A stretch of 64,000 bases of DNA from the human T2T-CHM13v2.0 reference genome, Homo sapiens. The translations under genes were made by a program, and so were the position numbers. Positions 226 through 59,745 of the stretch are shown here, one piece after another. The notes below the pieces were generated by a model. The model did no database searches, was not told the origin of the DNA, and saw only the letters and a program-made list of their open reading frames with translations. Numbering within the stretch: position 1 is the first letter of the stretch; each line of letters begins with the position of its first letter. The DNA lies in NCBI RefSeq assembly GCF_009914755.1, contig NC_060926.1. One strand, 5' to 3'.

Positions 226-437
226 AAACTCTAAAATGCACAGATAATTTAGAGCCTTATGTCCTATACATACAATGTTAAAAATTGGGGTTGTATTCCC
301 CAAATGCCTTTGAATAATAAAAATATCAGAGTGATCAAACAAAGAAACACAAACACTTTAAAATAAATGTTTACATACACAAATGATTTTATAAACATGC
401 ATTTAAAATGTAAAAATGAACTCAGATATCAAACTCC

Positions 438-1152
438 TGAAACCACCATTGCAAAATAAATATCTGAGACAGTGTAACAGATCTGACTTAACCAACTCCA
501 TCTTGCTTCTAACCACCAAGCTCTCCTTGTTCATTTTTGGACATAAGCCAAATTCACTTTGGGAGGAACTTAGTTGATAGTTTAAAACAAAGTGACAATA
601 GCCCTTTCCCAAAACAAACCCCCTTCTTGCCTGGGGACTAAACTGCCTTTGTAGGACTAACAAATTAGCCAAAAGATTAGAAATTATGGTTTAGGAGTCA
701 TGCAGCTGGAGGCTACAAGATTCCAACCCTCCCCAAATTGCTCCTGGAGATAACGTCACTATTATAAAACCTAAGATCCGTGCTTGAGAGATTTTGCAGA
801 CTGTGCACTTGATGGATCGGCTAGCACTACACAGATCGATAAACTGGCTCATCTGATCTTATGGCCCCCGCCCAGGAACTGACTTGGTGCAAGAAGACAG
901 CTTTGAATCCTTATGATTTCATCTCCCACCCAACAGATCAACACTCCAGATTCACTGTCCTCTACCTACCAAATTATCCTTAAAAACTCTGATCCCTGGA
1001 TGCTAAGGGTAACTGATTTGAGTAATAATAAAACTCCAGTCTCCCACACAGGTGGTTCTGCATCAATTACTCTTTCTCTATTGCAATTCCCCAGTCTTGA
1101 TAAATTGACTCTGTCTAGGCAGTGGGCAAGGTGAACCTGTTGGATGGTTACA
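438..1152 (+). mobile_element. ERV1 solo LTR, LTR8-like
   Basis: TG...CA termini (tgaaaccaccattgcaaaa ... gatggttaca), AATAAA, and a 4-bp TSD ctcc (434-437 and 1153-1156). Confidence 0.85.
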
Positions 1153-1290
1153 CTCCCATCATAACTTTTCCTTTTCAGGGAGTTTTCCAGATAAGCTGAA
1201 ACAGGGGGGATTTTATACAATACAGTGAGTTTGCAAAGTTGCAATATTCTTCCATTTCTGGAAATCCTGTGGACATTCTAAGATTCTCAA
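1153..1290 (-). pseudogene. Dynein pseudogene AAA1 exon remnants (continuing 405-437 beyond the LTR)
   Basis: MSTGFPE resembles VAEGFVD; KLTVLYKI resembles KFITLYTL; SYDG|SL across the LTR resembles HYDWGL. Confidence 0.5.
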
Positions 1291-1699
1291 TGGCTCTAAT
1301 GACTTTGGGACTGCATTTAACTTAGAATCAAAAGTCTGAAATGTTTTCTAAACCTATTCTGTATCCATGAGTGATTATAAAAGTCTTTGATGAATGGTGG
1401 TAAATGCTAGAAGAAGAATGTCCTTGGCAAATTCATATTCTTCGAGGATCTCTCACTCTTCCATTTCAGTAGGTTCTTATTCCTATACCACTGATTCTAA
1501 CCACTTCCCTTTTCCAGGATGCTGAAGGTACAGAAAGGTCTTCTCCTAGAGGAATCAAAATATTCTTTCTTATCCCTGAAAACACATTTGTTTGATATCT
1601 CTGGGACTCTGTGCTTCAACATAGAAAAAAAAATGCTTGCCAAATGTGATAATTAATTCTTTAGACATACAAATTTGCTGTATCCAGTCACAAATCCAG

Positions 1700-1870
1700 G
1701 CAAGCAAAAGCCATCCCATCATGATTTCTGATCACTGCCCCAACCTAAGCTCTCTTCACTTCCTTCAGATGTTTTCCCCTGCCCTTCAAAATCACATTCC
1801 TAGGCAAATACAACAATTGGAAATTGCAGGCTAGCTCATCGGCTTCCAAAGCCAACTCAGGGTGATGAAA
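1700..1870 (-). pseudogene. Dynein pseudogene AAA1 P-loop exon remnant
   Basis: AG then FITLS, resembling YITLT. EGQGKT (GQGKT at 1770-1784) resembles Walker A GPAGTGKT; AFAC resembles VFNC. Confidence 0.6.
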
Positions 1871-3496
1871 CTATCACGCTTTGTTTCCACAGGAATGGCT
1901 TCTCTTGATGTTTTCAGTTTATCTTTTTTGTACATATTTTCTCTTCTTAAATATATTGAAGAGTATAAATAATCCCAAATTTGAAGAAAATAAAAAACAG
2001 AGAGAGAGAGAGAGAGAAATAATCTGACACAGATTCCCTCTGTGAGGGCAGGCTCAGACTGCAGGCTGCATCTTCAGAATCACTTCCAACTGGCATGCAC
2101 CCTTCAGGTTTTTACTGGAGTCAAAGCAGCCCCCATTATGAGGTACTAATTAAGTGGCCATAATCTAAGCGCAACCCAACCTTACTTATTTTAAGGTAAT
2201 AACTTGCTTTTTTGTGAGCGGCAAGCTGGAGGGACCATTTTAATGAGTCTTTAGTCATGCATATATGATGCATAAGTAGGCCCATTGTTCTCAGGAAGAC
2301 TCTGAGGTAGACTAGAAAGCGAAAAACCCAGACTTCAGACTGAGAGGTTGAGTATCCTATTCACAGTGTCAGCTGGGCTTTGTAGCAGTACTCTTCTATG
2401 GAATCTCAGTGGGGCTATCCTCCTATACCCAGGTTTAGACTGCCTAGAGCCTGGGACATATTATGTCTTTTGTGTCTAGTCATGTTCTTATGGGAAGTTG
2501 AGATTGAGGCTGAACTATCAGGGGTTTGCGAGCCAGATCCCCTGTTCCCCTGACTCTGGGGACACAGTGAATCCCCTGGGCTAGCCTTGGTACTGACCCG
2601 CCCTGGACTGGATGAATGGTGTCCGTCACAGGGTGTTATCCAAGGCTGAACAAGCTGAATTTAGGGAACTGTACGGTGAACTGTATCTGGGCCACTGGAG
2701 ATCCCCCCTGAAGGGAATGGATCAGATCCATCACCACTGTCTGTCACCCAGAGGCAGGAAATGAACGGATGGATATTGGAGGAGGGGAGCACAGGTCCTC
2801 CCTGGGACTGCAAGTTCACTGGACTCTAGTTCTAAGTCCCTGGGAGTGCCCGTTGGCCGAAGGGGTTGAGTTGTTCCTGCCATTGGGAAACCTGTGAGGA
2901 TTATGAAGGAAGATTTTGGCTTGTGAGCTTTCAGAGTGGCGCATTCTAGGGTCAGCTGGGACCCACTTTGTTTTCTGTTACCCCAAGCCTTCAGAGAAAG
3001 AGCCAAAAACCATGGCCCAACCTGAGGTACTCAGTGGAATGAGGGAGGGCAGGAGGCCCTCCCCAGGGCTGGAGTAGCTGGGTGCTGGACATGGGCCCAT
3101 CAGAGTGGCTGTCGTGCCACCAGTGGCATGCCTAGCCTTCAGGATAAGAAGCCTACACAGAAAGATGAATAAAGGGACTGGTTCCCAGGGACACTCTATG
3201 GTTTTCAGGGGCCTAGGTTCCTGGCAATTCACAGTGATAACTGAGAGGACACTTTGAGGGGGATTCCCTTCTGGAAAGGAGGACAGTGGCAGCTCATCTT
3301 GTGTTAGTCTGAGTATAAAAAGGATGAGTTATTTCATTTTGTCATCACAAAATGGTTAAGTATGGCTTGGGTTCTGATGGTTACTGTGGTGTCTTCTTTG
3401 TGACTTAAAATGTACTAAAATCAGGAGATCACCTAGAAAAGGCACACAAGAAATATTTATTCTTTTTTTCCCTTTCTCCAAATTCAGATAGATCTC

Positions 3497-3700
3497 CTTT
3501 TCTGAGATTGAGGAGTAGAACCAAAAGGTCTCTATCCAAAGGAATGTAAGATAGTTATAAGATAGTTATATCAAGATAAATAATTACTAACAGCCTAGCA
3601 CACATATTAGAAAATTTATCACTTATATTTTTGTTGGTATTTCTCATCCCTGGAAATAAGATGCCCTTGCCTTGGGTTAGCCACTTGCAAAGGAAAGTGT
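3497..3700 (-). pseudogene. Dynein pseudogene exon remnant
   Basis: KWLTQ, RDEKYQQ, FSNMCA and YNYL resemble TWLSQ, RWEDTQK, FVNICDA and YEYL, in order. Confidence 0.6.
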
Positions 3701-4036
3701 GTTTGTGTGTCACAGAACGCTGTCTATTCACAGATCTTGCTTTTCACAGTAGAAAACCCGCTCCATCAACTAATTTTTTGTGTATGCCAATGCTTTTCAT
3801 CAATAGAGAAGCGCTCAGTGGAATATTTAGCCTGAGGACGAAAATATAAACAGAACGTTCTGCCACAAAAGATATACACCTTCTCAGAGGCCAGGGAAAT
3901 AAGGAAGATGATCTTCTATATCCCTCCCTTTTCCATAACTCCATGAACCTAGTGCTGATTTTGTAGCATCTCTGCTTAATTCTGATTTCATGCAGTTTTA
4001 CAAGGTCAGGTGTCAATCAGTAGCAGCCAGAAACCA

Positions 4037-4185
4037 AATTTGCTTGAAATCAGGCCTTCAACCTAGAGGCACACATCTATCTATTTCCCCTTGCATTTCC
4101 TCAATTTCAACAAAATTTTGTCCAGATCTCAAGTTCTGTTATATTTATCCCTACATGATAGTAAGGTTTATTCAAAGTGAGCTAC
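4037..4185 (-). pseudogene. Dynein pseudogene exon remnant
   Basis: IDVCL*VEGLISSK resembles IDVHARDVVAKLISQK. Confidence 0.5.
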
Positions 4186-4599
4186 AGTTTTCTAATAGAT
4201 TCTTTTTTAGCCATTTCGGGGTGAGCTTTTCGTAATACAGGAATAATAAAGCCAGCTTGTTTAACAAGTTTCATAAACTGGATACATAGGTTGATTCCAT
4301 TTTTGTCTTTATTAGTTTCATGGCTTTCTTGAGGTATAAGTGACATAGAATAAACTGCACTTATTTTAAAAGTATAATTTAATAAAATGTAAGATATGTA
4401 TATACCCATGAAACCACCATTACAGCCAAGATAATGAACATATTCATCACCCCCAAAGTTTCCTCAGATCACCCCATTTTTAACTAAGGAGAATATATCC
4501 ACAAGCTCCTATTAGACTCTCTGCCTCAGAAAGTCAAATTGCTGAGAAACCTATTTCTGAGCCTTATTTGGCTTTTATTTACACAAGTTGAATAGATAA

Positions 4600-4720
4600 A
4601 CATAATTCGTTGACAATGCATTCATAAACGAGGATACGTGAAATCTGTCTTCCAATTGCATCTTAAAAGAACATATTTTCATAGTAAAGTCTATTTGTCC
4701 CGGGAAGCATTAGACTATTT
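4600..4720 (-). pseudogene. Dynein pseudogene exon remnant
   Basis: FPGQI, WKTDF and YE.AL resemble FPAQV...WTTDV...YETAL. Confidence 0.5.
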
Positions 4721-5594
4721 GAAAGATGGAAATGGAAAAGTGAGCGATCATACTTAGAAAAGTCGCTGGTTTTTATCTCTTACAGGTCTGCAAATTTCTC
4801 AGAAGCTAAGCTTGAGAAAAACTACAGATTCCCGACATGAGTATTGTAGCCTCCACCCTCCCTTAGTCTCAGTGACAGAAGTGAAGCCCAAACCTCAGTT
4901 TTTACTCTGGGGAAGCACATTTTATAACTGGTCTCTAATTAAATGTTATTTAATAATTGCTTAATAAAAATTCTAACATTCCAGATAAAGTCATGGCAGC
5001 AGCACTATTAGTACTATGGTACAAAGATTTTCCCTTCTATGGTGTCTGCAGCAGCTGGATTCCTCAGTTCCCAGTTCTGCTGCTTACTAACTGTGAGAGC
5101 CCATGGCTAAGACATTGAACAGCTCCAACACTCAGTTTCCTCATCTATTAAATGGGACTAATGATAACAATAAGGCTTCCATGAAGATGAGATCGTAGGC
5201 ACTCCTTTAATGTTCACTGCCATTATTGTACCTGCATTGCCTTTTCTAGTCATACTATGGGCTAGAAGTGAGAGAGAAAAGCCTCAAATTTCAGTGTTAC
5301 TGACATTCTGGAGCAAGTATTTAATACACATTAATCTTTAGTGGAGCTAGCTGTCTTCTTATGCATCCGGACATCTGCCTACAGCCAAGTGGTATGTACC
5401 CTTCCAGCTCATTTTAATTTGGGACGAGAAGAAAGGACACTCATCTGCCAAAGAGGAAAGTTCCTTCACAACCTTAGCTTTTGAAGCTTACGAGAAGGAG
5501 CCGGTTGTGGAAGTGGCCCCACCCTCCATTGGAAGGCGTCTGTTCTGGACACTTGAGTTCTCCTGCAAGACCCCAGAAAAGCAGTTTTCTAACT

Positions 5595-5711
5595 ACCTTT
5601 GAAATGTCCCCATGGGGGCCAGTGCATCCTCTGTAGATAGCCCTGAAAAAATAGAAAAGCCTCCCAGTTGGAGCAGCTCTCTTGAAATGCTTTTTCACAT
5701 TGTATATTATA
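5595..5711 (-). pseudogene. Dynein pseudogene exon remnant (FPRFYF motif)
   Basis: CCAG acceptor. QCEKAFQE, RLFYFF and GDISK in shifting frames resemble [35 protein letters not shown]. Confidence 0.65.
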
Positions 5712-5768
5712 CTGGTAAAAAGTTTAATCCATCTTAGTTCCTGGAATTTATCCTAAGGAAATCATTCA

Positions 5769-6069
<301 letters not shown>

Positions 6070-6414
6070 TTTTTTTTTTTAAGACAGAGAGAGAGAAAGA
6101 AGCAGTGAAAAACAGCATACATTAGAAGGTATACCTCACATTGATGCTAATAGTAAAAAATTCTCAACAACCTCATGCAACATCTAAATTTTGGTACATT
6201 CATGGGCTGGAATATAAGGCAGGGATTTTAAATTATAAATGTAAAGACTACGTAGAAACAGAAGATGTTTCTGCTACAATATTTAGTAAAATAGTAGTTT
6301 GATTATTGCACATGCCATCTAACCTCATAAAAATAAATATAATATGACAAAGATGGAAAGAAATATGTAAAAAAAAACTATTTTTATGTTCCAGTAGGTG
6401 ACTATTTTGGGAAA

Positions 6415-7259
6415 ACTCTGAAACCGGGTTTTTCTCTGCTCTCACACCACCACCACAATTATCATCAACACAGAAAAAAGACTTCCGTGACCATTATAAT
6501 GTCTGCAGGGTTTTCCCCACACACCAAGCAGCAGACCCCAGCTGGGTGTCCTCCAATTCAATTTTGACACTATCCACCTGGCCATAGTGTCAGATCCCAC
6601 AGGTTGAGGTCTCAGTCCCCAGGACCAACTAGCTTCAAGTTGGGGCTCCCATGATCCCCTCTTGGGGTTTGATTAATTTGCTGGAGCGGCTTGCAGAACT
6701 GAAGGAAACAGGTTACTGGTTTAGCATAGAGGATATTAGGATACACATGAAGAAGTGAACAGGGTGAGGTATGGGAGAAGGGGTGTGGAGCTTCCATGAC
6801 CTCCCTGCTCAAGCCAACCTCCTCCAGGAACCTCCACATGGTCAGCTATCTGGAAGCTCCCAAACTCTATCCTCTTGGGTTTTTATGGAGGCTTCATTAC
6901 ACAGGCATGATTGACAACTGTGTAGAAATGTGACTGGACAAAAAGCACATGATCTAAACCCAGCAGGCCTTGTCTGTTCAGACTTTTCTTGGCCTCTCTG
7001 TGTAGCATTCCTTCCTCTAGGGTATGGGGCTGGTCTCTCTCTGGAATGAGGGTCTTATGACCCACAATCAGATTAGAGTCCTGCCTTGGGCAGGTGAAAG
7101 GAAGGCAGGAGAAGATCAAAGAGAAAAAGATTTTGTTTCCTGAGGCCTGCTTCTGAGGCCTAAAGAGCCCCAGTATTATAACAAAAGACTGTAACAAGGA
7201 TTATATGAGTTATGAGCTAGGAACCATGGACAAAAAGCAATATATATAATAATATCACA
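6415..7259 (-). mobile_element. MER21-like LTR
   Basis: Reverse strand begins tgtgatatt and shares internal sequence with the element at 34735-35515. Confidence 0.75.
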
Positions 7260-8081
7260 GTGAAATTTTTCTCTTATTTTCCAGATTTTCTGTATTGTTT
7301 TTATGTATTTTTTAATGGTAAAAATGATGGTTTGCCAGGTGGCTTTAAAAGAAATTATGAAGTCCAAGATGCTTTCTATAGGCAAGAAAGCTGTGTACTA
7401 TTTTGTGGATTTTTTGCTTCCTCATTTAGCTAGGAGTGTGATGGATAACACACACAGAGTTTTCCTGTTAACTCAAGAGAATCCTTCACAGGAAGAATCT
7501 CAATTGTGAGAGATTCATAAGTGTAGACGGGGCAGTTAAATGGCAGCCAACTTGGCCCCTGGAAAAAGGGAAGCCTGGCAGATCTGGCTCTAGGCGTGAA
7601 TGGAAGTCATTCTGCAGGGTGTAGTAAAAACAAAATGACTTTGGGGCATTACAGATCTGTGTTCAACTTTGTCACCTTGGGATAATCAATTCTGGTTCAG
7701 TTCAAGTCAGTTTACTTTTCTGACCCTCAATTTCTCCATTTGTAAATGGGAGTAACTATGATTATGACATCCTCCTCAGAAAGTCCCAGTGAGAATTTTA
7801 GTGAGTTCACTATACTAGTTGCTGGAGATAAAATGATGACTAAGACATCAGGCTCAAGAAGTGTACTGGGGAAGAGCATTATTAGCAAAGGGTGCAACAT
7901 AGCAAAGGCAGAGAGGAGAGACATCCCATGCTGGGGGCAATTACTAACAGATCTGTATCAGGGCACAGCAGGGTGTAGCAAAAGTAGACAGGCAGGCAGG
8001 AGACAGACCCATAAATCCCATACCATTAAACTTTACCCTGCAGATAACAGAGCCACTGAAAGATTTTATGCAGAAGAGTGG

Positions 8082-8466
8082 TGATATGGTTTGGATTTGT
8101 GTCCCCGCCCAAATCTCATGTCTAATTGTAATCCCCAGTGTTGGAGGAGGGGCTGGTGGGAGGTGATTGGATCATAGGGGCAGATTTCCCCCTTGCTGTT
8201 CTGGTGACAGTGAATGAGTTCTCATGAGACCTGGTTGTTTAAAGGTGTGTGGCACCTTCCTCTTCTCTCTCTCTCTCTCCTGCTCTGCCATATGAAGATG
8301 TGCCTGCTTTCCTTTCACCTTCCACCATGATTGTAAGTTTCCTGAGGCCTCCCCAGCCATGCTTCCTGTATAGCCTGTGGTACGGTGAGTCAATTAAACC
8401 TCTTTTCTTCCTAAATTACCCAGTCTCAGGTAGTTTCTTATAGCAATGCCAGAGTGAACTAATGCA
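8082..8466 (+). mobile_element. MaLR solo LTR (MSTA/MSTB-like)
   Basis: tgatatggtttgg...ctaatgca termini; 5-bp TSD agtgg (8077-8081 and 8467-8471). Confidence 0.88.
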
Positions 8467-8653
8467 AGTGGAAATTTCTTTTTGCATTTTGTCTAGAACA
8501 TGTACTAATGCAAGCGGAAATTTCTTTTTGCATTTTGTCTAGAACACTCTGGCAGCCCCATGAAGGATAAGGCTCAAGGAATAGAAATCAATTAAGAGGC
8601 CACTGGGTGCTCCAGTGAGATGATGGATCTAACAGATTCAAAACTGAGCCCTT

Positions 8654-8950
<297 letters not shown>

Positions 8951-9823
8951 ACCCTGAGTCCTTAATCTCCTCCCTGTCCCTTCCCACTGCAAACCTAGTC
9001 CTCACGCAGCCTTCCCCACCTTGGTGGCAGTGATAGCCTTCCAGCCACTCCCTGTCTACTTATCTCTCATATCCTGCAGCCCTTCCCTCAGCAAATGCTC
9101 TGGTTGGTTCTACCTTCGGGTTATAGGCAGAATCCAGTGACTTCTTATCATTTCCACTATAAGCCAGCCTTATTTCTTGCCTGGGATGTGGAATAGCATT
9201 TTGTCCATTCTTCCTGTTTCTGCTTCTTTCTGTCTTCAGTTCACCTTCAACACAGTGGCCAGGGAGATCCTTTTAGGATTTGGCAGTCATGCCATTCCTC
9301 TACCCAAACTGCCCATCTTCCCCTTCACCCTCCTTGCTCCATTTTCTTCTGAGAACTGATCACCTGGTAGCACGGTAGGTACTGGGCAGATAAATATTTG
9401 TTAAAATAATGATTAGATGATTAGGGTCATGGTCTAAGGTAGTAGAAGAGGGAAACAGTGGGAGAAGACTTGTTAAGAATGACTTGGGAGGTGAAATTGA
9501 CCAGATTCAGTAACTGATGGCATAGTTATAATGGGGAGTCAAGACGACCCCAGGTCCGTCACTGGGCACTGGGATGGGTTGGTGGTGTCATATCCTGGTC
9601 GAGGGAGCAAAGGCAGTGGAGCAGGGATGAGATATGGGACATCCTGGGTAAGGGGGCTCCGTGGACTGTTCAAATGCAGACATCTGGGTACAGAGGTCAC
9701 AAGGGCTCCCTCTGCCCAGCCAGACTTCCCCTTGCCTGGTTTCCAGATGATGTCTGGAGAAAGGCAAACCCCAGATCAAAAACTAGGGTACCTAAGAATG
9801 CCCAAAGCCTACTATAAGGTTGT

Positions 9824-9872
9824 CATTACTTTTAATGATAAAAACCGCAATTTACTTCTGCATCAACCTAAT
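9824..9872. mobile_element. MADE1 (Hsmar1 mariner MITE) fragment
   Basis: cattacttttaatgataaaaaccgcaatttacttctgcatcaacctaa matches the MADE1 centre and right TIR. Confidence 0.75.
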
Positions 9873-9879
9873 AATTAAA

Positions 9880-10010
9880 AGTCCAGATTTCCCACCCTGC
9901 TGATTCTGATTCTGTAAGAGCTGCAGGGAGCCTAAGAATCTTCATTTTAACTAGGGCCCAGGGGATTCCGATGCAGATAATCCGCAGGCCTCACTTTGAG
10001 AAACACTGAC
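9880..10010. mobile_element. MER5-like hAT element fragment
   Basis: gattctgattc..gcctaagaatct..cattttaac..gatgca..cactttgagaaacactg. Confidence 0.65.
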
Positions 10011-11374: not shown

Positions 11375-11515
11375 CTCTATTATTTTCCAAATAATTTACA
11401 TTATTTCATCACATTGCTAAGCCTTCACTGGGCTGAGATGCAGATGCTCCAGTTATCTTCAGACTGATTCAGCTGCAACTTCCATGTGAATACAGAGTTC
11501 CATCTTAGGACCAAT
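11375..11515 (-). pseudogene. Dynein pseudogene exon remnant
   Basis: HWS.KMEL resembles TWATMKF; QCDEIM*I.LENNR resembles KSDEQLFETLEHNQ. Confidence 0.5.
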
Positions 11516-11706
11516 GGGAGCCCCGTGCACCCTTCACTTTCCTACTACCCAAAGTAGTAGGTGTGGGGACGCTGCAGAGAGATTGAGATCTGCAGTTGAA
11601 CATAATTCCACATCTGTCTTAGTTCATTCAGGCTGCTGTAACAAAATACCATAAACCACATCCCTATGGCTTATAAGCAACAGATATTTATTTCTTATAG
11701 TTCTGA

Positions 11707-48600: not shown

Positions 48601-48602
<2 letters not shown>

Positions 48603-48647
<45 letters not shown>
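48603..48647 (+). repeat. (GT)n microsatellite
   Basis: Direct reading. Confidence 0.97.
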
Positions 48648-48649
<2 letters not shown>

Positions 48650-49999: not shown

Positions 50000-50995
50000 C
50001 ATGGTACAGATGTGATTTTTCAATATTGTATAATGAAATGTATCAACATTTAGAAGATTTGCAAAGCTTAACCGATATTTTCCAAATGACCCATGAATGA
50101 CATCAGAAAATCATGCATGCATAAGAGACCCACTCAAAGTACAAGATAGATCAATGCACTTTAATGTAACAGAATAGGAAAAGTTCATTGCTATGGTTTC
50201 AGATTTCACATTATAACCAGCCTTTAAGGAGTCCCCTCCTGCCAAGTGTTGGTGTAGTATCAAAGATGGATGTCCATGATTATCTGAAAAGGCTCCTCCT
50301 CCCTTTTCCAACTACATATCTGTGTCAAGCTAGATTTTTTTTCATGAATTTCAACCAAAACAACACATCCCAACAAATTAGATGCAGAAGCAGCTATAAG
50401 AATCCAGTCATCTTCTAATAAACCAGACATTAAAGAAGTTTACAAAAATATAAAACAACGCCACTCTTCCTACTAATTTTTTCAGAAAATAAAATGTTTT
50501 TAATTTTCAAAAATGTATTATTCATGTTAACATGTAATGGGTTTATTACTATTATTTCTAAGTGAATTAATATTTTAACTTATTTTCAGTTTTAATTTCT
50601 AATATGGTAAATATGGATATATATAACCCATATACACAAAATTTCTTTGGAGTTCACAATAATTTTTTTTTTTTTTTGAGACAAGGTCTCACTCTGTCAC
50701 CCAGATCTCGGCTTACTGCAACCACTGCCTCCTGGGTTCAAGCAATTCTCCTGCCTCAGCGTCCCGAGTAGCTGGGACTACAGACACACATTACCACGCC
50801 TGGCTAATTTTTGTAATTTTTGGTAGAGACAGGGTTTCACTGTGTTGGCCAGGCTGGTCTCAAACTCCTGGCCTCAAGTAATCCTCCCAAGGTCCTGGGA
50901 TTACAGGTGTGAGCCACTGCACCAGGCCACAATAATTTTTAAGAATGTAAAAAGGACTTTTTGGTCCCGAGACCAAAAAGTTTGAAAACTGTTAT
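50000..50995. mobile_element. Charlie1-like hAT DNA transposon remnant interrupted by an Alu (~50663-50927)
   Basis: aagtacaagatagatcaatg..tttaatgtaacag; terminal gtcccgagaccaaaaagtttgaaaact. Confidence 0.7.
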
Positions 50996-51007
50996 ACAAT
51001 CAGCCGG

Positions 51008-53120
51008 CTGCTATATTGGCAAAATAGACTTTAAGACAAAAATCATTGTGAAGTATAGAGAAGGCCACTATATGAAGATAAAAGATTCACTTCACCAGGA
51101 AGATATAACAATTCTAAGATTGTATGCACTTAAAAAAATAGCCTTAAAATACATTAAGCAAAAATATATTTGTCCCTTGGCATCCAGGAGGAACTGGCTC
51201 CGGGACCCCACCCCACCATGGATACCAAAATCCCCAGATGCTGAAGTCCCTGATAGACACTGGTGTAGTATTTGCACATAACCTGTACATATCCTCCCAT
51301 ACACTTTAAATCACCCCTAGATTATTTATAGCACCTTCTACAAGGTAAATGTTATGTAAATAGTTGTAATATTGTGTTACTTAGGAAACGATGACAAGAA
51401 AAACAAGTCCATACAGATTTAGCACATGATTTAGCACATATATTTTTGATTATTTTCAATCTGCAGTTGGTTGACTCCACAGATGTATAACCCAAGGACA
51501 TGGAGGCTGACTCTATATATAAAGCATATAAATTGGCAAATCCACCACCATAATGGAAGATTTCATTTCGTCTCTCTCAATTATTATTAAGTCAAGCAGG
51601 CACAAGTGAGTCCAGAGATTCTGGACTCACAAAAGAGATGTTACACTCCGATGGTGAGTGGACAGAGAATAACGAAGAAATATTCACAAGGAATCGGTGA
51701 GGTTAAGAGACACCAGCTGAGGATGGCTGGAGAAGCACATCCAGAGCTAGCAACAGGAGGACCGAGGGCCCAGGCCAGGGCGTGGTCACCAATACCAACA
51801 CAGGGAGAGCAGCAGCTGAAGGAGAGGGTGCACACAAGCTTGGTGGCCTTGAACAGGGCATTGCAGTCTTTGCCAAAATAGCCTGGCAGGAGGGAGCTGG
51901 GTGAATGAATACTCTGACTTTTACTCTATCACTTTCTGGTCTTCCATTGGGTGAGCCCACGGAAGCCAGGGAGCAAGGGTGTCCTTGCTACAGATCACAC
52001 AGGCAGCCTGCTGATGCACAAGGCAGGGCGAGGAAACATGGAGAGGGGCTCTGGAGGGCAGAAGGAGAAGTCCAGCACACAAAGAGATGATCTGAGCAAC
52101 ACAATGCACTGGTCTCCTTTTCTGGATTAAAAAAAAAAAAGAACACTGGATCCAACAATTAAGGAATACACATTCCTCACAAGCACACAACTGGAACATA
52201 TACAAAAATCGACCACAGTTCTAAGCCAACAAGCAAGTATGAGCAAATGTTAAAAAGTCCGTATCAAACAGAACCTGTTCTGTGATCACAAAACATTTCA
52301 ATGGTGTGGGATTAAGTCAATAACAGAAAAAAAAATGCAGTGGAACCCCACATGTTTGGAAATTTTTAATACACACTTCTAATTACTCAAAGAAAAAAAT
52401 GCAAACCCAGATAGACTCAGAAATTAATGATAATGAAAATACCGCATATCAAAGCTTGTAGAAGTAGCAAAATAGTACATAGAGGGAAATGTATATCTTT
52501 AAATGCCCATATTAGAAAATTTTAAAACAGAATTAATAAGCTAAGCATCCAATTTAGAACATTAGGAAAAATAAAGTGATTGCATGAGTCTGTTTTGCAT
52601 TGCTGTAAAGGAATACCTGAGGCAGAATAATTTATAAAGAAAAGAGATTTACTTTGGCTCATGGTTCTGCAGACTGTACAGGAAGCATGGTGCCAGCATC
52701 TGCTTCTGGTGAGGCCTCAGGAAGCTTCCAATCATGGCAGAAGGTAAAGGGGGAGCAGACATGTCACATGGAGAAAGGGGAGCAAGAGAGAGAGGGATGG
52801 GGTGCCAGGCTCTTTTAAATAACCAGATCTCGCGTGAACTCATAGAGTGAGAAGCCACTCATTACCACAAGGATGGTACCAAGCATTCATAAGGGATCCG
52901 CCCCCATGACCCAAACACCTCCCACTGGGCCCACCTCTAATGCTGGAGGTCACATTTCAACATGAGATTTGGAGGGGACAAACATCCAAATTATAATAGT
53001 CACAAAAATATGAAAGGAGAAAATAATAAAATAGAAAACGAAGATCAAGTAAAGATGATCAAGCCAAATGTTCGTTCTTCAATTAGACTAATAAAATCTT
53101 TTTGAGACTAATTTGAAAAA
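51008..53120 (+). mobile_element. Old L1 ORF2 (endonuclease region) fragmented by nested MER2, an LTR-like element and an MST LTR
   Basis: KIDFKTKIIVKYREGHYMKIKDSLHQEDITILRLYA resembles L1 ORF2 EN. MER2-like ~51170-51515; MSTA-like on the minus strand ~52578-52998. Confidence 0.8.
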
Positions 53121-53126
53121 AAGGAG

Positions 53127-53490
53127 GGCTGGCACGGTGTCTCACGCCTGTAATCCCTGCACTTTGGGAGGCTGAGATGGGAAGATCGCTTGAGCCCAGG
53201 AGTTTGAGAGCAGTCTGAACAACATAGTCAGACCCCATGTCTACAAAAAGTAATTTAAAAATTTAGCTGGGCATGGTGGCGCTCACATGTGGTCCCAGAA
53301 AGTCCAGGAGTTATAAACTGTAGTGAGTTTTGATCATGCCACTACACTCCAGCCTGGGCAACAGGAGTGAGACCCCATCAAAAAGAAAGAAAAAAAGAAA
53401 GAAAAAGAAAGAAAGGAAAGAAAGAGAGAGAGAGGGAGGGAAGGAGGAAGGAAGGGAAAGAAGAAACAAAAGAAAAAGAATAAAAGGGGA
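53127..53490 (+). mobile_element. AluJ (internal deletion) with a GAAA/GGAA tail
   Basis: Alu consensus plus a purine-rich repeat. Confidence 0.85.
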
Positions 53491-56400
53491 GAAAGTAAGA
53501 ATACACAAATTAAACATTGCATCTCTGCTTCCCTTTTCACAGCCTCAGTCCCACATTCCTAACCTCCAGCCATCCTTTTTTTTAGCTCTGTGTGAGCTGA
53601 AAGGGTGTGTTTGAGATTAGAGGTTAAGTGAGCAAAGTATGCATCTGAATTGGGTGACTTTATAGAATCTGTTGAGATTCTGCATGCTCTACCGTATCTT
53701 CTGACGAGCCCCTCTGGGCTCTGTGCTCCTGGGTGTGTTTGAGGGTCCGGGCTGTGCAGAGAGCAGGCATTGCTATCTAAACAAGAATAACCAGAGCACT
53801 GGACGCTGAGCGCCTGAGGTGGAAGAAGTGCCCCGACGCTGCTGGAAAAACCAGCGCCGACCTGGGAAGCTAACGGAGCAGAAGACAGATCTGAGCCCTG
53901 CGCCATCGTTTTATCTATGGCCAGCTCTGTGCTTGCTATTCATAAGCCGTGTGAACACTGCCATTCAGGTGGGATTTGGGGTGCTGAAGGGCTCTCCACG
54001 GCTACAGAAAATCTTTTTGTTGTGCTGTTTAGGGAATTTTCTTTTGCTTTTTGTATTTTCCATTTTTCTTGTGCTGCTTTATAATACCTTTTCTACAGGG
54101 ACCACAAATCCCTTCACAGTGCTCAGTCATCTTTGTAAAATGGAGGCCCATTTACACGTGCTATCTCAAGATGTGTGGACCAGAAATGAAATACTCACCC
54201 AAATCATCCAGACCCCGGGGTTTTATATTCATGGAAGACTGTGAAAGGTAAAAAGAACTGTGAACCAGGTGCAAAGAGTCATTTCCAGCTTCATAATTAC
54301 TGAGGGGAAACGGTATTTCAAAACCATGGGCGTGGAACTGAGGTTGGCAGGGACAGAGGTGCTATAACACACATTAAATCGTTGCAAACGGCACCATCCA
54401 TTATAAATTAGTAATATCAACACTCTATCACTGAATACACTTTTAAAACGGAAATGTAGTCTTTTATTTTCTCCCATCAGAACCTGGTCGAGTCCTTTTG
54501 ACTCTTGAAATGACCAGTCATTAATCTGCTGAAATGTTTCAGGTAGTTGGAGAGAAATCCCTGCATTCCAATTTATTGAAAACTCAATTCAGAATTTAAT
54601 TTAAAACATCAATATTCTTCATTCAGAGCAACATTCCCCAAATAACTTTTCGTTTCCAATTTTAATTAAAATAACAGTCTGAGAATGGCATATACTGTTG
54701 CTCTACACGCTCATTAAAAAACAAACATGAACTAAAATTGATTGATATTATCCCTGCGGTAATGACTTTAAAATTCTCACTCTGGCCATTTATAATCATC
54801 ATAACTAAGTAAAATATGTATCTCTACTTATTTAACCACTAAGGAAAGATAACTCATTGTCCCCCAGTCATTTCTTCAACACATTAGAGCTCTGACTTGA
54901 AAAAAGAAAATTTCTGTTTTAATATTTGAGTATGATGAGATCTCCATGGACCATTAGTAGTCTTTTCTATTTTTATCTTAAACTTGGGTTATTCTTGTGT
55001 ATGCATAAAACCACCTTCCATGCTTTTTAATTCTATGAACTGGAAATAAGAAACAATATTTATAGATGATCTCTGAAATTACCCAGTAAATACAGCACAT
55101 AATGATTTGACTGACCTCCCCGAGGTGTGTGTCATATTGGTATTTGTATTTCTGCTATCTATCAAACCTAAGATATAGATAAGGCAATAAACCTCTAGTC
55201 TAAAGCTTATTACACAGGACCATAATTCTTTTTATTTCTTTGTAAGAATTACTATAAGCAAAATCTGAACGTTTTCTTATTTCAATCTATTTTTCCTCTT
55301 TTGAAACCTGAATGTTATCCTTGTTAAAAATTGTAATGTAATTCCATGGTAATTGATACTGCAAAGAGGTTAGAAATACACACGCAGGCCTGCCTTTAGG
55401 GTACAAGGGGCTCGTCTTATTTAATTTAGAGCATGGCTCCTATACAAGAACAATACTGAATTTTCAACCAAAATTGCATAAGTCTAGCATGTAAGTGATG
55501 TGTAAATGAAGTGCTCCCTGAACAGGCATTAAATGCGCGTTAAGAGGGAAGACCATAACAGTCCATCATTTCAATGATCCCAGCCCAAAAGTGCTTGAGT
55601 CACTTTGACACAACAGAGTGTGACAGCTTCATAGGCACTGTTTCAGGCTGCTGGGTCCAAGCCCAGTGGAAAAGTGCAAATGAAAATCGGCCCAACGAGT
55701 CACCGATGGCCGTGGCCCAGGCTCTGAGTGCCAGTTGGCACAGTCCATCACTTTTCCAGACTGGACTGGCCAACTTGATCCACAGGAGGGAGGATTTTAC
55801 GTGATTTTGCTCTAAATAAATGATGAGCAACTGATGTGGAAATAAGCCAATCAGATAACTTTAGGTTTGAATCCAAACCCTGGGCAATGGTTTCCAGGTG
55901 CTCGCCAAACAGATAGGAACAGCCCCTGGAACAGCACAAAGGGAACAGTCTCTTGGGAGTTGATGTTCCAATCTTTGCCTCACATACGAAGGTATGTAGG
56001 GTGAATGCCTAAAAATTCATCTTCCCCTACAGGGATTCAGAATAAAAGCATTCTATCTTTTTCCAGTCCAGGGCTAGTATCTGTGTATCTTTCACTATAA
56101 AATGAGTCCCCATGAAACAGTCCAACTTCAGTTATTAATGAAGTAATACACCCATTCATGTAGGAAAATTGATCCAATGCTATTTTGGCAGGGATGAGAT
56201 TGCTACACATCCAGGACCTACTACCAGGCCTTGACCATGGTAGGAACTCAAAATTATCTTACACAAGTCAACTTTGACTCATTTCTTAACTATCAAAGAT
56301 GGATTTGCACCATCTATCCATGCACTTTTATTCAAAACCCTAAGCCTGCATTTGCACCATGTTTAGCTGGAAGTGGGAATGAAATCTATACCACAGGACA

Positions 56401-57094
56401 CAATGTCATCATCACTTTGTGAGAACATTACCCATAATATGGCCTCGTTAGTATCATTCTCCACTGATATAATCAACCCACTGAAAATTCCACTTCTAGG
56501 TTATACTGTTGAAGAAACATATCTTAGACCTAATCATTAAATATCTAAGTGTTGGCATCAAAGAATATATTCCAGGAAATAAATATATACATATATGTAC
56601 ATACACATACGGCACAATCATCAGACCTCATATATTTTCCAAATAACCTTTTCAAGAGAAATGTAAACTTTTGCTATTTTTATAACATTTCTTTTTAAAT
56701 ATGTGAATACCAATAATGTAATTTAACTTTTTCTTAATATTTAGGGTTGACCTTAGAAATATAAATTAATATTATCTCCTATAACATAGTGGTGCTCTTG
56801 AGGCCTATTGATGTACATAAAACTCGCCATTTTAGTTACGCTGACAGACTTCAGTTCAGGAGGAGGGGGTGTCTGGTTTTGGCCACTTCTGTGAGCATCC
56901 CTGTCTCCTCCCTGAATAAGAAGTTGTCACTCCACCCTGCTGTCATGTAAACTTTTCTTCTCATCTCAATCCCTACCATGTCATTGGGTTTTTCTGCTCC
57001 TAAAATGCTATTGGAACTATTCATTCATTCATCTATTTATTCTACAAGCATTTAATGAGCCTCTATTATATGCCAGGCACTGTCCTGGGAATAG

Positions 57095-57331
<237 letters not shown>

Positions 57332-58020
57332 TGATGAAACCCACAGCTGATGGGTGGACAAGCAATTAGCCAAAGAATCATGCAAATAAATGTAACATCA
57401 CCTCAGAGAAACAAGAGGGATATGAGGCAGTAGACAACCAGGAACTGATCAGGAAGGTCAGAGGAGACTTCCTTGTGATGGTTGAGCAGATCTCCTAAGA
57501 GTTCACTGGTGAGGAAGGATGTGGAGAGAAACACACGTGCCAAAGCCCTGTGGTGGGAGAGAACACAGAATCTGCCACATAGGAAGAGGAGCCCTGTGGC
57601 CAAGACCTAGGCCTTTTGGTCTCTAAGGGCAATGGAAGGCAGTTCAGGTGTATAAGTGGGCAGTTGCATTTTGAAAACACCACCTTGGCTGCAGAGTAGA
57701 GGACATTTTGGACATAGGCAAGCTTTACATCCAGTAGGAGCCTGTGGCAGTTAAGTCCAGCAAAAACGATGGTGGCTTGGCCTAAAGGCAGTATTCTCAG
57801 TCCAGGCTCCACAGAATTCTGTGAATTTAGGTGGGAAAACAAGCGTATCTTTATTGTCATCAACCGCTAATTGAAATTTAGTATTTCCTTTCGTTATAAA
57901 CGTAGGCAGCAAACCACAGGAGTATTAGCAGCATCTGTGACCTTGCTACCGAGAGAAATCACAGGTGTTTTCAGATCACATTACAGTTGCTGCAGATATA
58001 TCAAGATATCATTTATACTC

Positions 58021-58320
58021 GGCCAGTCGCGGTGGCTCACGCCTGTAATCCTAGCACTTTGGGAGGCCGAGGCAGGCGAATCACCTGAGGTCAGAAGTTC
58101 GAGACCAGCCTGGCCAACATGGTAAAATCCCATCTCTACTAAAAATACAAAAATTAGCCGGGCATTCTGGTGTGTGCCTGTAATCCCAGGCTGAAGCAGG
58201 AGAATCACTTGAAGCTGGGAGGCGGAGGTTGCAGTGAGCCAAGATTGATTGTGCCACTAAACTCTAGCCTGGGTGACAAAGCGAGACTCCGTCTCAAAAA
58301 CAAACAACAACAACAACAAA
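58021..58320 (+). mobile_element. Alu (S-type) within a hAT-like element (~57790-58630)
   Basis: Alu consensus flanked by tcatttatactc duplications. Confidence 0.88.
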
Positions 58321-59174
58321 AATATATATATATGTCATTTATACTCATCACTACTTGAAAATTACTGCAGTTGTTAGGCCTGCTACTATGTCATATTACA
58401 TAATGCATTTATAAAGAAGCACATATATTATTATAAGTCAAAATTATTAATACTTTGATAACTGTATTTTAACATAATTGGTTTTCTTTGTAATCCTGTG
58501 TTTTATTTAATGCATTATAAAGCCTTATTCTTTCTGCATTAGTTTGCTAAAAAAAATTAAAAAGTTAAAAATCTTACTTTAAAAAGGGGCACATAGGCTT
58601 CACCAGACTGCCAAAGGGTTTCATTGCAAAAAGTAGGTCAAGACTCCCTGCACGTGAAGAGTGGACGATTTGAGAGCTGTGTAGAAGGTCAGTGTGGCAT
58701 GACCGAAAGGTGAATGGGCGCACCCAGATGAAGGGAAAGAAGGTGCCTGGGAGAGTTTCTAGAGGTCTGGTTTATGCAAGTGGATGAGCAGTGGCGCCTT
58801 CAATCAAGGAAGAAAACACTAGAAGAAGAAGACCATAAGAACATCTATGGGTAAAGCACAAGGGCTTTCGTCACTGGGCTCTGGGCATCTCATTTGGTCA
58901 TTTTTTTCCCCTCACTTTCTGGTTCTCAGCCAAATTGTAGATAGTTGAGAAATATTGGGAAGTCGGATGTCACCATGAACAGATACATACACATATAAAC
59001 AGAAATCATTATCAAGAAAATTACAGGTTTCTAGTCACAATTTCCAGTTACAAGGTATTTTTTAATATTTACAAATGAAACCATTATCCAAAAGCTGCCT
59101 TTTCCTCTCTAGTACAAGATTGCTTCCCAAGGGACTGCATTTCTTTTCCTAGAGGACACCAGTTTTCATTAAAA

Positions 59175-59325
59175 CCTTGAAGGAAGCAATGGATGTCATC
59201 GCCCCAAGTCTTCGTTTACTAGGTCCCGATCTCCATTCTATTTATTCAAGACTACCACAGCTCCTTCAAAAAATCAGAAACATCAACCCAAATATCCTCA
59301 TTATTTCTGTTTCTACACAAGAGCA
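59175..59325 (-). pseudogene. Dynein pseudogene exon remnant (tail, early)
   Basis: LCRNRNNEDIW resembles VLSNKNNHKSW; downstream T.LLPS resembles KTLLPLP. Multiple stops. Confidence 0.4.
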
Positions 59326-59419
59326 ACATATTGACTTTGCCAAAACAATTAAATTTAAGCCATGAGTCACCAGCCAAACAGTCCCCTTGGTGACTTCATC
59401 CAAGCCTTCCTCCTGCCAG

Positions 59420-59745
59420 CTGTCCCTCCTGCATCTGTCGAGTCCTGGGCAGGGGAAGGGCTGCAAACAAGACAGATTAAATTCTGTGATATGTCTTCAT
59501 TTTTGTTGCCTTAGAATTTGTGGAAACCTTCTAAACACAAATTGATTCCAAATCAAGTTTTGAATATCGGAGTCAGGGAAATGAACTATTGATTTGCCCT
59601 TGGCTCTGCAGAACTCAATCAGAATTTTCTCATTTTCTGCTGTTTTTTTCCTTTTACCTGTGGAAGGAACACTTCGGGCAAGAACCAATTCCAAGGCTGG
59701 TAGATGATGTTTGAGAAATAGTGGCTCTCCTCACCCCTGTCATTC
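59420..59745 (-). pseudogene. Dynein pseudogene, N-terminal exon remnant
   Basis: ORF 59497-59694 contains AENEKILIEF...RRFPQILRQ, resembling the DNAH17 N-terminus AEENVALFTEF...GFPQSLKSK. Another frame gives NEDISQNL..SPSP, resembling SENINKDN..SPTP. Confidence 0.55.

What the first reader, a model, noticed from the sequence alone, without database searches (positions are those of the whole stretch)
405..59745. Fossil ~59-kb intron-containing axonemal dynein heavy chain gene hidden in apparently intergenic DNA
Seen: about 20 minus-strand segments between repeats translate into stop- and frameshift-riddled peptides, several bounded by AG/GT with compatible phase. Knowledge: they resemble outer-arm beta-type dyneins DNAH9/DNAH11/DNAH17 (N-terminus, DHC_N1, DHC_N2/linker, AAA1) in the protein's order. 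Inference: different exons resemble different paralogues best, and divergence looks too high for a recent duplicate. This points to a unitary pseudogene of a separate family member lost on the lineage leading to this species. It is nearly invisible to ORF finders.
Basis: partly seen in the sequence, partly recalled or inferred. Interest (0 to 1): 0.92.

Follow-up and report, generated by a model that had tools for sequence, protein, structure and literature searches.

The report
Dead fourth outer-arm dynein gene
The human gene desert between SP3 and CDCA7 holds the decayed exons of a fourth outer-arm beta dynein heavy chain gene that fishes, amphibians and lizards still have, and this window contains only a small tail-domain part of it.

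Summary
The core of the finding is real, but its extent and content are misdescribed. Minus-strand, collinear, stop- and frameshift-bearing dynein heavy chain relics exist (clade HMM over 264 kb: 9 minus hits, 0 plus).

The fossil spans at least 222 kb, from window +86,001 to -136,444, not 59 kb. Inside the window I confirm 4 strong relics: 24111-24224, 21838-22055, 17788-18047 and 17576-17671. Two short coherent pieces (25317-25361, 17479-17556) and up to 3 weak ones add to these.

All window relics come from the tail (second half of DHC_N1 plus the stretch before DHC_N2). The late-linker, AAA1 and AAA2-lid relics lie below the window start. One early DHC_N1 exon lies at +85.8 kb. No N-terminus and no DHC_N2 relic was found anywhere.

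A 523-column tree puts the fossil inside the 'dnah9l / DNAH11-like' clade (sharks to lizards). That clade is sister to true DNAH11, with DNAH9 and DNAH17 outside. Human paralogues are only 41-59% identical. The order SP3, fossil, CDCA7 mirrors SP4, DNAH11, CDCA7L.

It is a unitary pseudogene. One relic exon, outside the window, was probably already reported in 2009 (PMC2831330).

The parts
59102..59359 (-). Weak, collinear candidate relic (P0003 aa 290-363); 4 in-frame stops.
   Evidence: tblastn 25.4 bits against a plus-strand maximum of 25.0. Tail HMM 5.5 bits at 59147-59317. No Pfam dynein hit. Not significant alone.
25317..25361 (-). Short relic exon end (P0003 aa 564-578), followed by a consensus donor GTAAGT.
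   Evidence: 10 of 15 residues identical, 27.3 bits. It joins exactly onto the next relic (q578 then q577). Donor seen.
24111..24224 (-). Relic exon (late DHC_N1; P0003 aa 577-612); acceptor AG before 24218; one in-frame TAA.
   Evidence: tblastn 62% over 34 aa, E 1.7e-5. phmmer 15.0 bits. HMM 12.6 bits. Sequence.
21838..22055 (-). Relic exon (P0003 aa 762-833, after DHC_N1); one in-frame TAG, one frameshift near 21900-21918; donor GT after 21838.
   Evidence: tblastn 32.3 + 27.7 bits in two frames, E 7.9e-6. HMM 16.6 bits, 11.4 bits. Sequence.
17788..18047 (-). Best-preserved relic exon in the window (P0003 aa 834-920; clade-HMM 953-1047). One in-frame TGA. Polypyrimidine tract plus AG acceptor; donor GT at 17790. 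Its start coincides with the start (18047) of the last exon of predicted lncRNA LOC105373745.
   Evidence: 112 bits, 65% to P0003. HMM 74.9-93.6 bits. 89/80/75% to P0001/P0002/P0003. Sequence. The only human paralogue hit is DNAH17 at 41%.
17479..17671 (-). Next relic exon (P0003 aa 937-991) after a ~125-nt intron. Several stops and one frameshift before the MFKEHLL stretch.
   Evidence: 39.7 bits. HMM 12.3 bits (17576-17671) and 5.3 bits (17479-17556). Sequence.
1..64000 (-). The whole window is an inner piece of the fossil gene, which continues beyond both ends. The form accepts only places within 1-64000, so the outside relics are listed here in window coordinates, all on the minus strand:
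- 85843..86001: early DHC_N1, clade-HMM 304-356, no stop.
- -1510..-1430: HMM 1184-1210, before DHC_N2.
- -46759..-46583: end of linker, HMM 1727-1785, 1 stop.
- -83953..-83846: AAA1, HMM 1927-1962, 1 stop.
- -89754..-89551: AAA1, HMM 2042-2109, no stop.
- -134015..-133890: AAA lid, HMM 2316-2357, no stop.
- -136444..-136313: HMM 2360-2403, 2 stops.
   Evidence: - HMM scores, in the order listed: 46.4, 10.5, 44.7, 20.2, 62.2, 45.2 and 40.6 bits.
- tblastn with P0004, P0005 and P0006: all HSPs collinear on minus.
- Pfam: DHC_N1 40.7 bits (+85.8 kb); AAA_6 23.1 and 29.9 bits; Dynein_AAA_lid E 3.8e-4 and 0.18.
- PF08385 genome scan, E 1.4e-6.
- Human paralogue identities.

Best explanation
The window lies inside a unitary pseudogene. 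It is the in-situ wreck of the human orthologue of the vertebrate 'dnah9l' gene, which NCBI often labels 'DNAH11-like' or even 'DNAH11'. This would be a fourth outer-arm-dynein beta heavy chain. It is the sister paralogue of DNAH11 and arose before jawed vertebrates diverged, most likely in the 2R genome duplication.

The gene ran on the minus strand from just below SP3 towards CDCA7. It was a normal intron-rich gene of at least 222 kb. It lost its coding function on the mammalian line leading to humans and has since collected stops, frameshifts and repeat insertions. Only the more conserved exons are still recognisable.

The window holds the tail-domain part only, about aa 420-1100 of about 4450. 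It has no protein function now. One relic exon's old acceptor site is used by a predicted lncRNA.

Shown: the relics, their order and strand, the lesions, clade membership, the absence of a close human copy, and the mirrored gene order. Inferred: the time of loss, neutral decay, and the 2R origin.
For: 1. Relics and order.
- tblastn with three near-full-length clade proteins (Ascaphus P0004, Rhinophrynus P0005, Latimeria dnah9l P0006) gave 8, 8 and 7 HSPs at E <= 0.01. All are on the minus strand and collinear from aa ~305 at +86.0 kb to aa ~2400-2440 at -136.4 kb.
- Clade HMM over 264 kb in six frames: 9 minus hits at 2 bits or more, 0 plus.

2. Lesions. 9 in-frame stops in 537 aligned relic codons, plus frameshifts in relics 21838-22055 and 17479-17671.

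3. Not processed. Relics are spread over 222 kb and flanked by AG/GT.

4. Clade. ML tree, 46 rows, 523 columns, LG+G4:
- fossil + P0003, 99.7/100; + Varanus, 89.1/98; + amphibians, 93.3/98;
- the 100/100 branch separates this clade from true DNAH11, DNAH9, DNAH17 and the amphioxus/hemichordate sequences;
- fossil branch 0.52 against 0.10 for P0003.

5. No live human copy. Human genome searches with 5 relic exons return only the relic itself plus DNAH11/9/17 at 41-59%.

6. Position.
- chr7: SP4 21.566-21.618 Mb (+), DNAH11 21.696-22.010 Mb (+), CDCA7L zinc-finger exons 22.039-22.041 Mb (-).
- chr2: SP3 174.452-174.387 Mb (-), fossil 174.368 to 174.1456 Mb (-), CDCA7 173.8525-173.8535 Mb (+) (hub table for SP3).
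- Fused fish gene model P0279 has an SP3-like front: 93/81/63% to human SP3 exons against 86/39% to SP4. Its dynein tail is 87% identical to the sturgeon clade member and 47-52% to DNAH11 proteins. This indicates sp3 directly upstream on the same strand.

7. Literature. PMC2831330 (section 24 read) states that the SP3-CDCA7 and SP4-CDCA7L blocks are 2R paralogues, and that one DNAH11 exon aligns to non-coding chr2 DNA. PMC6008050 (passages) lists zebrafish Dnah9l with no human counterpart.
Against: - The N-terminal ~300 aa were not found between +86 kb and SP3.
- The half beyond aa 2403 was not mapped. Genome-wide Pfam scans found no chr2:173.86-174.15 Mb hit for Dynein_heavy (28 matches at E<=0.01 among 52 candidates scored), AAA_9 (54 of 67) or AAA_8 (62 of 63). 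These scans are insensitive here: the DHC_N1 scan found 1 of at least 5 tail relics.
- About 200 aa (tail-HMM 381-583) have almost no relic across 34 kb of the window.
- 0 of 5 window pieces hit a dynein Pfam model, so their identification rests on clade-specific queries.
- DNAH17 and human DNAH9/11 enter the tree only as 191-283 columns of exon translations. DNAH9 is otherwise one shark protein.
- Gene labels by chromosome place are recalled, backed by 85-95% identity of chr7 exons to dog DNAH11.
- P0279 is flagged UNVERIFIED_CONTAM, and adjacency is read from a gene model, not from a contig.
- The 80% human-bat identity of the 18-kb relic is higher than I expect from old neutral decay.
Confidence: 0.9

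Rival explanations
1. The relics are leftovers of a DNAH11 paralogue lost right after the 2R duplication, kept recognisable for about 450 My only because they act as cis-regulatory 'coding exons' for SP3. This is the reading of PMC2831330 for the one exon it found.
For: - PMC2831330, section 24, proposes exactly this for chr2 (hg18) 174454487-174455587.
- The +85.8 kb and 18-kb relics are much better kept than their neighbours.
- The 18-kb relic is 80% identical between human and a bat gene model.
Against: - Predicted near-full-length genes of this clade exist in sharks, ray-finned fishes, coelacanth, lungfish, amphibians and Varanus, so the paralogue was not lost after 2R.
- The fossil nests among amniote members next to an intact 991-aa tail (P0003). 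The loss is therefore later than the split from squamates.
- At least 11 relics over 222 kb with stops look like gene-wide decay. Ten of the 11 relics could be compared with Varanus; in 9 of those 10 the ratio of fossil-Varanus to Varanus-Ascaphus identity is fairly even, 0.66-0.88.
Confidence: 0.04
2. It is a duplicated (segmental or dispersed) pseudogene copied from DNAH11, DNAH9 or DNAH17 within mammals.
For: DNAH11 is the best human match by score for 4 of 5 relic exons tested; one of these ties with DNAH9 at 57% identity.
Against: - Identities are only 41-59%, lower than to frog, lizard or coelacanth clade members: 54-57% overall against 42% to dog DNAH11.
- The tree separates the fossil from the DNAH11 clade with 100/100 support.
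- The locus is the expected paralogous position next to SP3.
Confidence: 0.02
3. Chance similarity of random ORFs in repeat-poor intergenic DNA.
For: - Several window pieces are individually weak (59102-59359, 54487-54563, 23130-23285).
- No window piece hits a dynein Pfam model.
Against: - E-values reach 9e-33 in the window and 3e-22 outside it.
- There are no plus-strand hits at thresholds that give 4-9 minus-strand places.
- Order and strand are strictly collinear.
- Exon junctions match the protein exactly.
Confidence: 0.01

Closest known systems
Vertebrate dnah9l, labelled 'DNAH11-like' by NCBI (zebrafish dnah9l; Latimeria and Lepisosteus 'dynein, axonemal, heavy polypeptide 9 like'; amphibian 'DNAH11-like'; Varanus P0065)
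   Same: - Same clade in the tree.
- 54-57% identity over 495-528 relic residues.
- Same domain order: DHC_N1, DHC_N2, AAA_6 and so on in P0004.
- sp3 lies upstream in a fish gene model.
   Different: - The human copy is dead: stops, frameshifts, and most exons unrecognisable.
- The other species' genes are predicted intact. Expression is shown for zebrafish dnah9l in the otic vesicle (PMC6008050, passages read).
Human DNAH11 (chr7, between SP4 and CDCA7L)
   Same: - Closest living human paralogue: 51-59% on 4 relic exons.
- Sister clade in the tree.
- Mirror-image neighbourhood and orientation.
   Different: - DNAH11 is an intact gene.
- The fossil is not derived from it; the split predates sharks versus bony vertebrates.
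The '2R exonic remnant / regulatory coding exon' of Dong et al. 2009/2010 (PMC2831330), chr2 hg18 174454487-174455587
   Same: - Same interval (SP3-CDCA7) and same partner gene (DNAH11).
- Probably the +85.8 kb relic. Its DNAH11 partner exon lies about 20 kb into DNAH11, as does the chr7:21700405-21700554 partner of my relic.
   Different: - That paper reports one exon, says DNAH11 has no paralogue there, and dates the loss to post-2R rediploidisation.
- Here at least 11 relics over 222 kb are mapped, assigned to a living vertebrate clade, and the loss is placed after the split from squamates.
- I could not lift hg18 coordinates to this assembly, so the identity of the exon is inferred.
Classical human unitary pseudogenes such as GULOP (recalled, no call)
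   Same: A single-copy ancestral gene disabled in place, with working orthologues in other vertebrates.
   Different: - This one is far larger: probably about 80 exons, judging from my recalled exon count for DNAH11.
- It is much more decayed.
- It is not annotated in the RefSeq table given for this window.

Membership tests
Dynein heavy chain, outer-arm beta type (Kollmar class DHC4-beta) | Match to the tail model DHC_N1 (PF08385) | tested here: met
   The +85.8 kb relic scores 40.7 bits against a 28.3 cut-off. This relic is outside the window. 0 of 5 window pieces match; they match the DHC_N1-bearing P0003 instead.
Dynein heavy chain, outer-arm beta type (Kollmar class DHC4-beta) | Motor-domain modules in order (linker, AAA1, later AAA modules) | tested here: inconclusive
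   AAA_6 relics score 29.9 bits (above cut-off) and 23.1 bits (below). AAA-lid relics are at E 3.8e-4 and 0.18. All are collinear.
dnah9l / 'DNAH11-like' orthology group | Phylogenetic nesting within the group, apart from DNAH11, DNAH9 and DNAH17 | tested here: met
   fossil + P0003 99.7/100; + Varanus 89.1/98; the clade is separated from DNAH11 and the rest by 100/100. DNAH17 is represented only by 283 columns of human exon translations.
dnah9l / 'DNAH11-like' orthology group | Conserved position next to sp3 / cdca7 | tested here: inconclusive
   The human arrangement is shown. One fused fish model, P0279, links an SP3 orthologue to a clade-type tail, but it is flagged as possible contamination. 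No non-human assembly could be inspected.
Unitary pseudogene | Disabling lesions in an intron-containing (non-processed) copy | tested here: met
   9 stops in 537 relic codons. Frameshifts in 2 window relics. Exons are spread over 222 kb with AG/GT borders.
Unitary pseudogene | No functional copy of the same orthology group in the same genome | tested here: met
   Whole-genome searches with 5 relic exons return only the locus itself and DNAH11/9/17 at 41-59%. The first-look filter of that tool makes this a strong but not absolute negative.
Unitary pseudogene | Functional orthologues in other species | not testable with these tools
   Near-full-length predicted proteins carry all the dynein Pfam domains in many vertebrates. 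Zebrafish dnah9l expression is reported in PMC6008050. Function was not tested here.

The most novel reading that the evidence does not exclude
A subset of the relic exons is not decaying neutrally. This would include the 18-kb relic in this window and the +85.8 kb relic near SP3. They would have been kept as non-coding elements after the gene died, as enhancers of the SP3 regulatory block or as the spliced exon of lncRNA LOC105373745. Alternatively, the gene died independently and late in several mammalian lines, with an intact tail (P0003) still surviving in a lineage closer to humans than lizards are.

The hint is that the 18-kb relic is 89% identical to a New World monkey model and 80% to a bat model. 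My rough, recalled neutral expectation for human-bat would be near 40%.
Probability: 0.3. Interest if true: 0.65.

Novelty: new member of a known kind. Interest (0 to 1): 0.5.

Why it matters
- It would show that the vertebrate ancestor had four outer-arm beta heavy chains: DNAH9, DNAH11, DNAH17 and dnah9l. Mammals on the human line dropped one of them. This bears on how different cilia and flagella (airway, node, sperm, inner ear) are built from paralogue-specific dyneins.
- It corrects a published reading. One of these exons was taken as a 450-My-old relic of genome duplication held by regulatory constraint.
- It explains part of the SP3-CDCA7 gene desert.
- It accounts for spurious 'hypothetical proteins' predicted from this locus in other mammals.
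- It flags that database names ('DNAH11' for clade members in sharks, teleosts and Xenopus) hide the fourth gene.
- The locus could serve as a test case for separating neutral exon fossils from exapted ones.

Tried and rejected
I switched to local HMMs.
With the 2596-aa P0012 it scored only 18 of 265 candidates and missed the fossil.
- The representative-library search with P0003 returned mostly unnamed fragments. None of its 17 proteins of 3000 aa or more matched the human DNAH9/11/17 exons at above 49%. Vertebrate DNAH9 orthologues were therefore not obtained that way, and the DNAH17 comparison rests on a single exon. Human exon translations were used instead.
- Pfam genome scans for the C-terminal half (PF03028, PF12781, PF12780) gave no hit in the interval.
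- A search for zinc-finger ORFs in the 10 kb at the SP3 3' end found none. SP3/SP4 places came instead.
- The weak hit at 54487-54563 did not reappear at 22 bits or more. It is kept only as 'possible'.
- Earlier findings of this scan were not open.
The outside relics are now listed in one window-wide part and in the text.
- Literature searches that found nothing on a human chr2 dynein fossil beyond PMC2831330:
  - 'dnah9l' (4 papers);
  - dynein heavy chain + pseudogene + DNAH11 + DNAH17 + vertebrates (1 paper);
  - 'unitary pseudogene' + dynein (4 papers, titles only seen);
  - 'axonemal dynein heavy chain' + 'lost in mammals';
  - 'DNAH11-like';
  - 'LOC105373745'.
- Kollmar 2016 (PMC5100056, passages read) lists only DNAH9/11/17 for human and mentions dynein pseudogenes in fish and birds. 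Its supplements were not seen.

Full report
**What was checked.** The window is T2T-CHM13 chr2:174282001-174346000 (hub note). It lies in the gene-poor interval below SP3.

**Is there a dynein fossil?** Yes.
- A genome-wide six-frame scan with Pfam DHC_N1 returned 47 matches from 76 scored candidates. All but one fall in places I recall as the known dynein genes. The exception is chr2:174367849-174368004 (-), E 1.4e-6, which is window 85849-86004, outside the window.
- Inside the window, the open frame 17878-18051 (-) hit three database proteins among 9 candidates. Two are ab-initio models from a titi monkey (P0001, 89%) and a bat (P0002, 80%). The third, P0003, is an unnamed 991-aa protein carrying DHC_N1 (75%).
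- tblastn of P0003 against 264 kb (the window plus flanks fetched) gave 13 HSPs at E <= 10. Nine are minus-strand and collinear. The other 4 are weak (E 0.8-8.7) and scattered.

**Who are the relatives?** P0003's best long relatives (201 hits, 120 listed) are named as follows:
- 'DNAH11-like' in amphibians (Ascaphus 53%);
- 'dynein, axonemal, heavy polypeptide 9 like' in coelacanth and gar;
- 'DNAH11' or 'DNAH11-like' in sharks, teleosts and lungfish;
- an unnamed Varanus protein (46%).

Mammalian DNAH11 proteins reach only 36-37%.

**Extent of the fossil.**
- With three near-full-length clade proteins, tblastn at E <= 0.01 gave 8, 8 and 7 HSPs. All are minus-strand and collinear, from aa ~305 at +86.0 kb to aa ~2400-2440 at -136.4 kb.
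- A 4459-position HMM of 20 clade proteins was searched without filters over six frames of the 264 kb. It gave 9 minus hits at 2 bits or more and 0 plus hits.
- The fossil therefore spans at least 222 kb, and the window is an inner piece of it.
- Pfam places the outside relics in DHC_N1 (+85.8 kb, 40.7 bits), AAA_6 (-83.9 and -89.7 kb) and Dynein_AAA_lid (-134.0 and -136.4 kb).
- In Ascaphus P0004, DHC_N1 is aa 198-771, DHC_N2 is 1273-1677 and AAA_6 is 1811-2137.

**What the window itself holds.** The results come from chunk-wise HMM scans, phmmer and relaxed tblastn with P0003.

| Window place (-) | P0003 aa | Support | Lesions and signals |
|---|---|---|---|
| 25317-25361 | 564-578 | 27.3 bits | ends at a GTAAGT donor |
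| 24111-24224 | 577-612 | E 1.7e-5 | AG acceptor; one TAA |
| 21838-22055 | 762-833 | 32.3 + 27.7 bits | two frames; one TAG; GT donor |
| 17788-18047 | 834-920 | 112 bits, 65% | one TGA |
| 17479-17671 | 937-991 | 39.7 bits | stops and one frameshift |

- The junction between the first two relics is exact in the protein (q578 then q577).
- Weak collinear candidates are 59102-59359 (25.4 bits against a plus-strand maximum of 25.0), 54487-54563 and 23130-23285.
- With the full HMM, window hits cover positions 674-1065 only, and none is on the plus strand at 2 bits or more.
- The window thus carries the second half of DHC_N1 and the stretch between DHC_N1 and DHC_N2. It has no N-terminus, DHC_N2 or AAA1.
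- Splice signals and lesions were read directly from the sequence.

**Which gene was it?**
- Five relic exons searched against the whole human genome found only themselves and three paralogues:
  - chr7 DNAH11 at 51, 57, 54 and 59%;
  - chr17:11.5-11.7 Mb DNAH9 at 46, 57, 43 and 50%;
  - chr17:79.4 Mb DNAH17 at 45, 53, 53 and 41%.
- These gene labels are recalled from chromosome place. The chr7 exons are 85-95% identical to dog DNAH11.
- This excludes a recent duplicate.
- I aligned 41 long proteins, added the 11 relic peptides, human paralogue exon translations and P0003, and kept the 523 columns covered by the fossil.
- The ML tree (LG+G4) joins the fossil with P0003 (99.7/100), then Varanus (89.1/98), then amphibians (93.3/98). 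This sits in a clade that also holds lungfish, coelacanth, ray-finned fishes and sharks.
- A 100/100 branch separates this clade from true DNAH11, which itself spans sharks to mammals. DNAH9, DNAH17 and the amphioxus/hemichordate sequences lie further out.
- Both sister clades contain cartilaginous and bony vertebrates, so the duplication predates their split.
- Over the relics, the fossil is 54% identical to Ascaphus, 57% to Varanus and 42% to dog DNAH11. Varanus and Ascaphus are 79% identical on the same columns.
- There are 9 in-frame stops in 537 codons. The fossil's branch is 0.52 substitutions per site against 0.10 for P0003, as expected after loss of constraint.

**Position.**
- The CDCA7-type zinc-finger model hits chr2:173852504-173853505 (+) and chr7:22039271-22040547 (-).
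- DNAH11 exons run from chr7:21.696 to 22.010 Mb (+).
- SP4-like exons are at chr7:21.566-21.618 Mb (+), and SP3 exons at chr2:174.399-174.442 Mb (-).
- So SP4, DNAH11, CDCA7L on chr7 is mirrored by SP3, fossil, CDCA7 on chr2, with the same relative orientations.
- A fused fish gene model, P0279, has an SP3-type front: 93/81/63% to human SP3 exons against 86/39% to SP4. Its dynein tail is 87% identical to the sturgeon member of the clade and 47-52% to DNAH11-type proteins. This points to sp3 directly upstream on the same strand in that fish.
- That record is flagged as possibly contaminated, so I count it as a hint.

**Literature.**
- Dong et al. (PMC2831330; section 24 read in full) state that SP3-CDCA7 and SP4-CDCA7L are 2R paralogous blocks.
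- They report that one DNAH11 exon aligns to non-coding chr2 DNA (hg18 174454487-174455587).
- They say DNAH11 has no paralogue there, and call the piece a remnant of post-2R rediploidisation and a candidate regulatory exon.
- By its DNAH11 partner it is probably my +85.8 kb relic. I could not lift the coordinates over.
- My data change the story. The paralogue survives in most vertebrate groups, the human copy nests among amniote members, and at least 11 exons remain. The loss therefore came after the split from squamates.
- Yamaguchi et al. (PMC6008050; passages) list zebrafish Dnah9l without a human counterpart.
- Kollmar 2016 (PMC5100056; passages) names only DNAH9/11/17 for human.
- Six further searches found no description of the multi-exon human fossil.

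**When was it lost?** This part is inference.
- No named mammalian or bird member of the clade appeared among the 120 listed long hits or the 16 near-length hits. Squamates did appear: Varanus, Phrynosoma and Lerista.
- The monkey and bat models contain only the 18-kb relic amid unrelated or Alu-like peptide. This suggests the gene is dead there too.
- The stop density and the branch excess suggest roughly 0.1-0.2 neutral substitutions per site. By recalled rates that means on the order of 100 My.
- Against a simple old neutral decay, the 18-kb relic is 80% identical between human and bat. P0003, the fossil's nearest relative, has an intact 991-aa tail and even resembles the human intron after that exon.
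- Independent late losses, or non-coding constraint on some relics, remain open.

**Side observation.** The last exon of the predicted lncRNA LOC105373745 (17847-18047, hub table) begins exactly at the ancestral acceptor of the best relic.

**Limits.**
- The N-terminal ~300 aa and everything beyond aa 2403 are unmapped.
- DNAH17 and DNAH9 are thinly sampled in the tree.
- No non-human assembly or GENCODE track could be inspected.

**Verdict.** This is a real unitary pseudogene of the fourth outer-arm beta heavy chain (dnah9l type). One of its exons is probably already in print.

Noticed in passing
window 17847-18047 (-), with 20406-20514 and 20971-21041: The last exon of predicted lncRNA LOC105373745 starts at 18047. 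This is exactly the polypyrimidine tract plus AG acceptor of the best-preserved dynein relic exon. The lncRNA model seems to reuse the dead gene's splice site.
   Followed up: partly
P0001 (Plecturocebus cupreus) and P0002 (Sturnira hondurensis), matching window 17878-18051: These two database 'proteins' are ab-initio ORF chains. They contain the relic exon read on into its intron, amid Alu-like or unrelated peptide. They look like annotation artefacts of the same fossil in other mammals.
   Followed up: partly
P0279 (flagged UNVERIFIED_CONTAM, Acipenser sinensis): This fused gene model has an SP3-type transcription factor (Btd box and zinc fingers) followed by a dnah9l-type dynein tail. It indicates that the two genes are adjacent on one strand in that contig.
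   Followed up: partly
G000 chr13:88565561-88567381 (-): An SP3-like stretch of about 600 codons in one piece, with at least 5 stops. It was the best hit of the fish SP3-like sequence (58%). It looks like a processed SP3 pseudogene.
   Followed up: no
Protein names: Members of the dnah9l clade are named 'DNAH11' in sharks (Mustelus, Heterodontus), many teleosts and Xenopus tropicalis (P0013). The true DNAH11 of the same groups carries the same or a '-like' name. The naming hides a fourth paralogue.
   Followed up: partly
P0003 aa 921-943 versus window 17663-17790: P0003 reads in frame through the short intron after the 18-kb exon. Its intron-derived residues resemble the human intron translation. 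It looks like an intron-retaining transcript from a fairly close relative.
   Followed up: no
window 25400-59000 (-): About 200 aa of the tail (tail-HMM 381-583) have almost no detectable relic across 34 kb. By contrast, 21.8-25.4 kb holds 3-4 relics within 3.6 kb. Decay or deletion is very uneven along the fossil.
   Followed up: no
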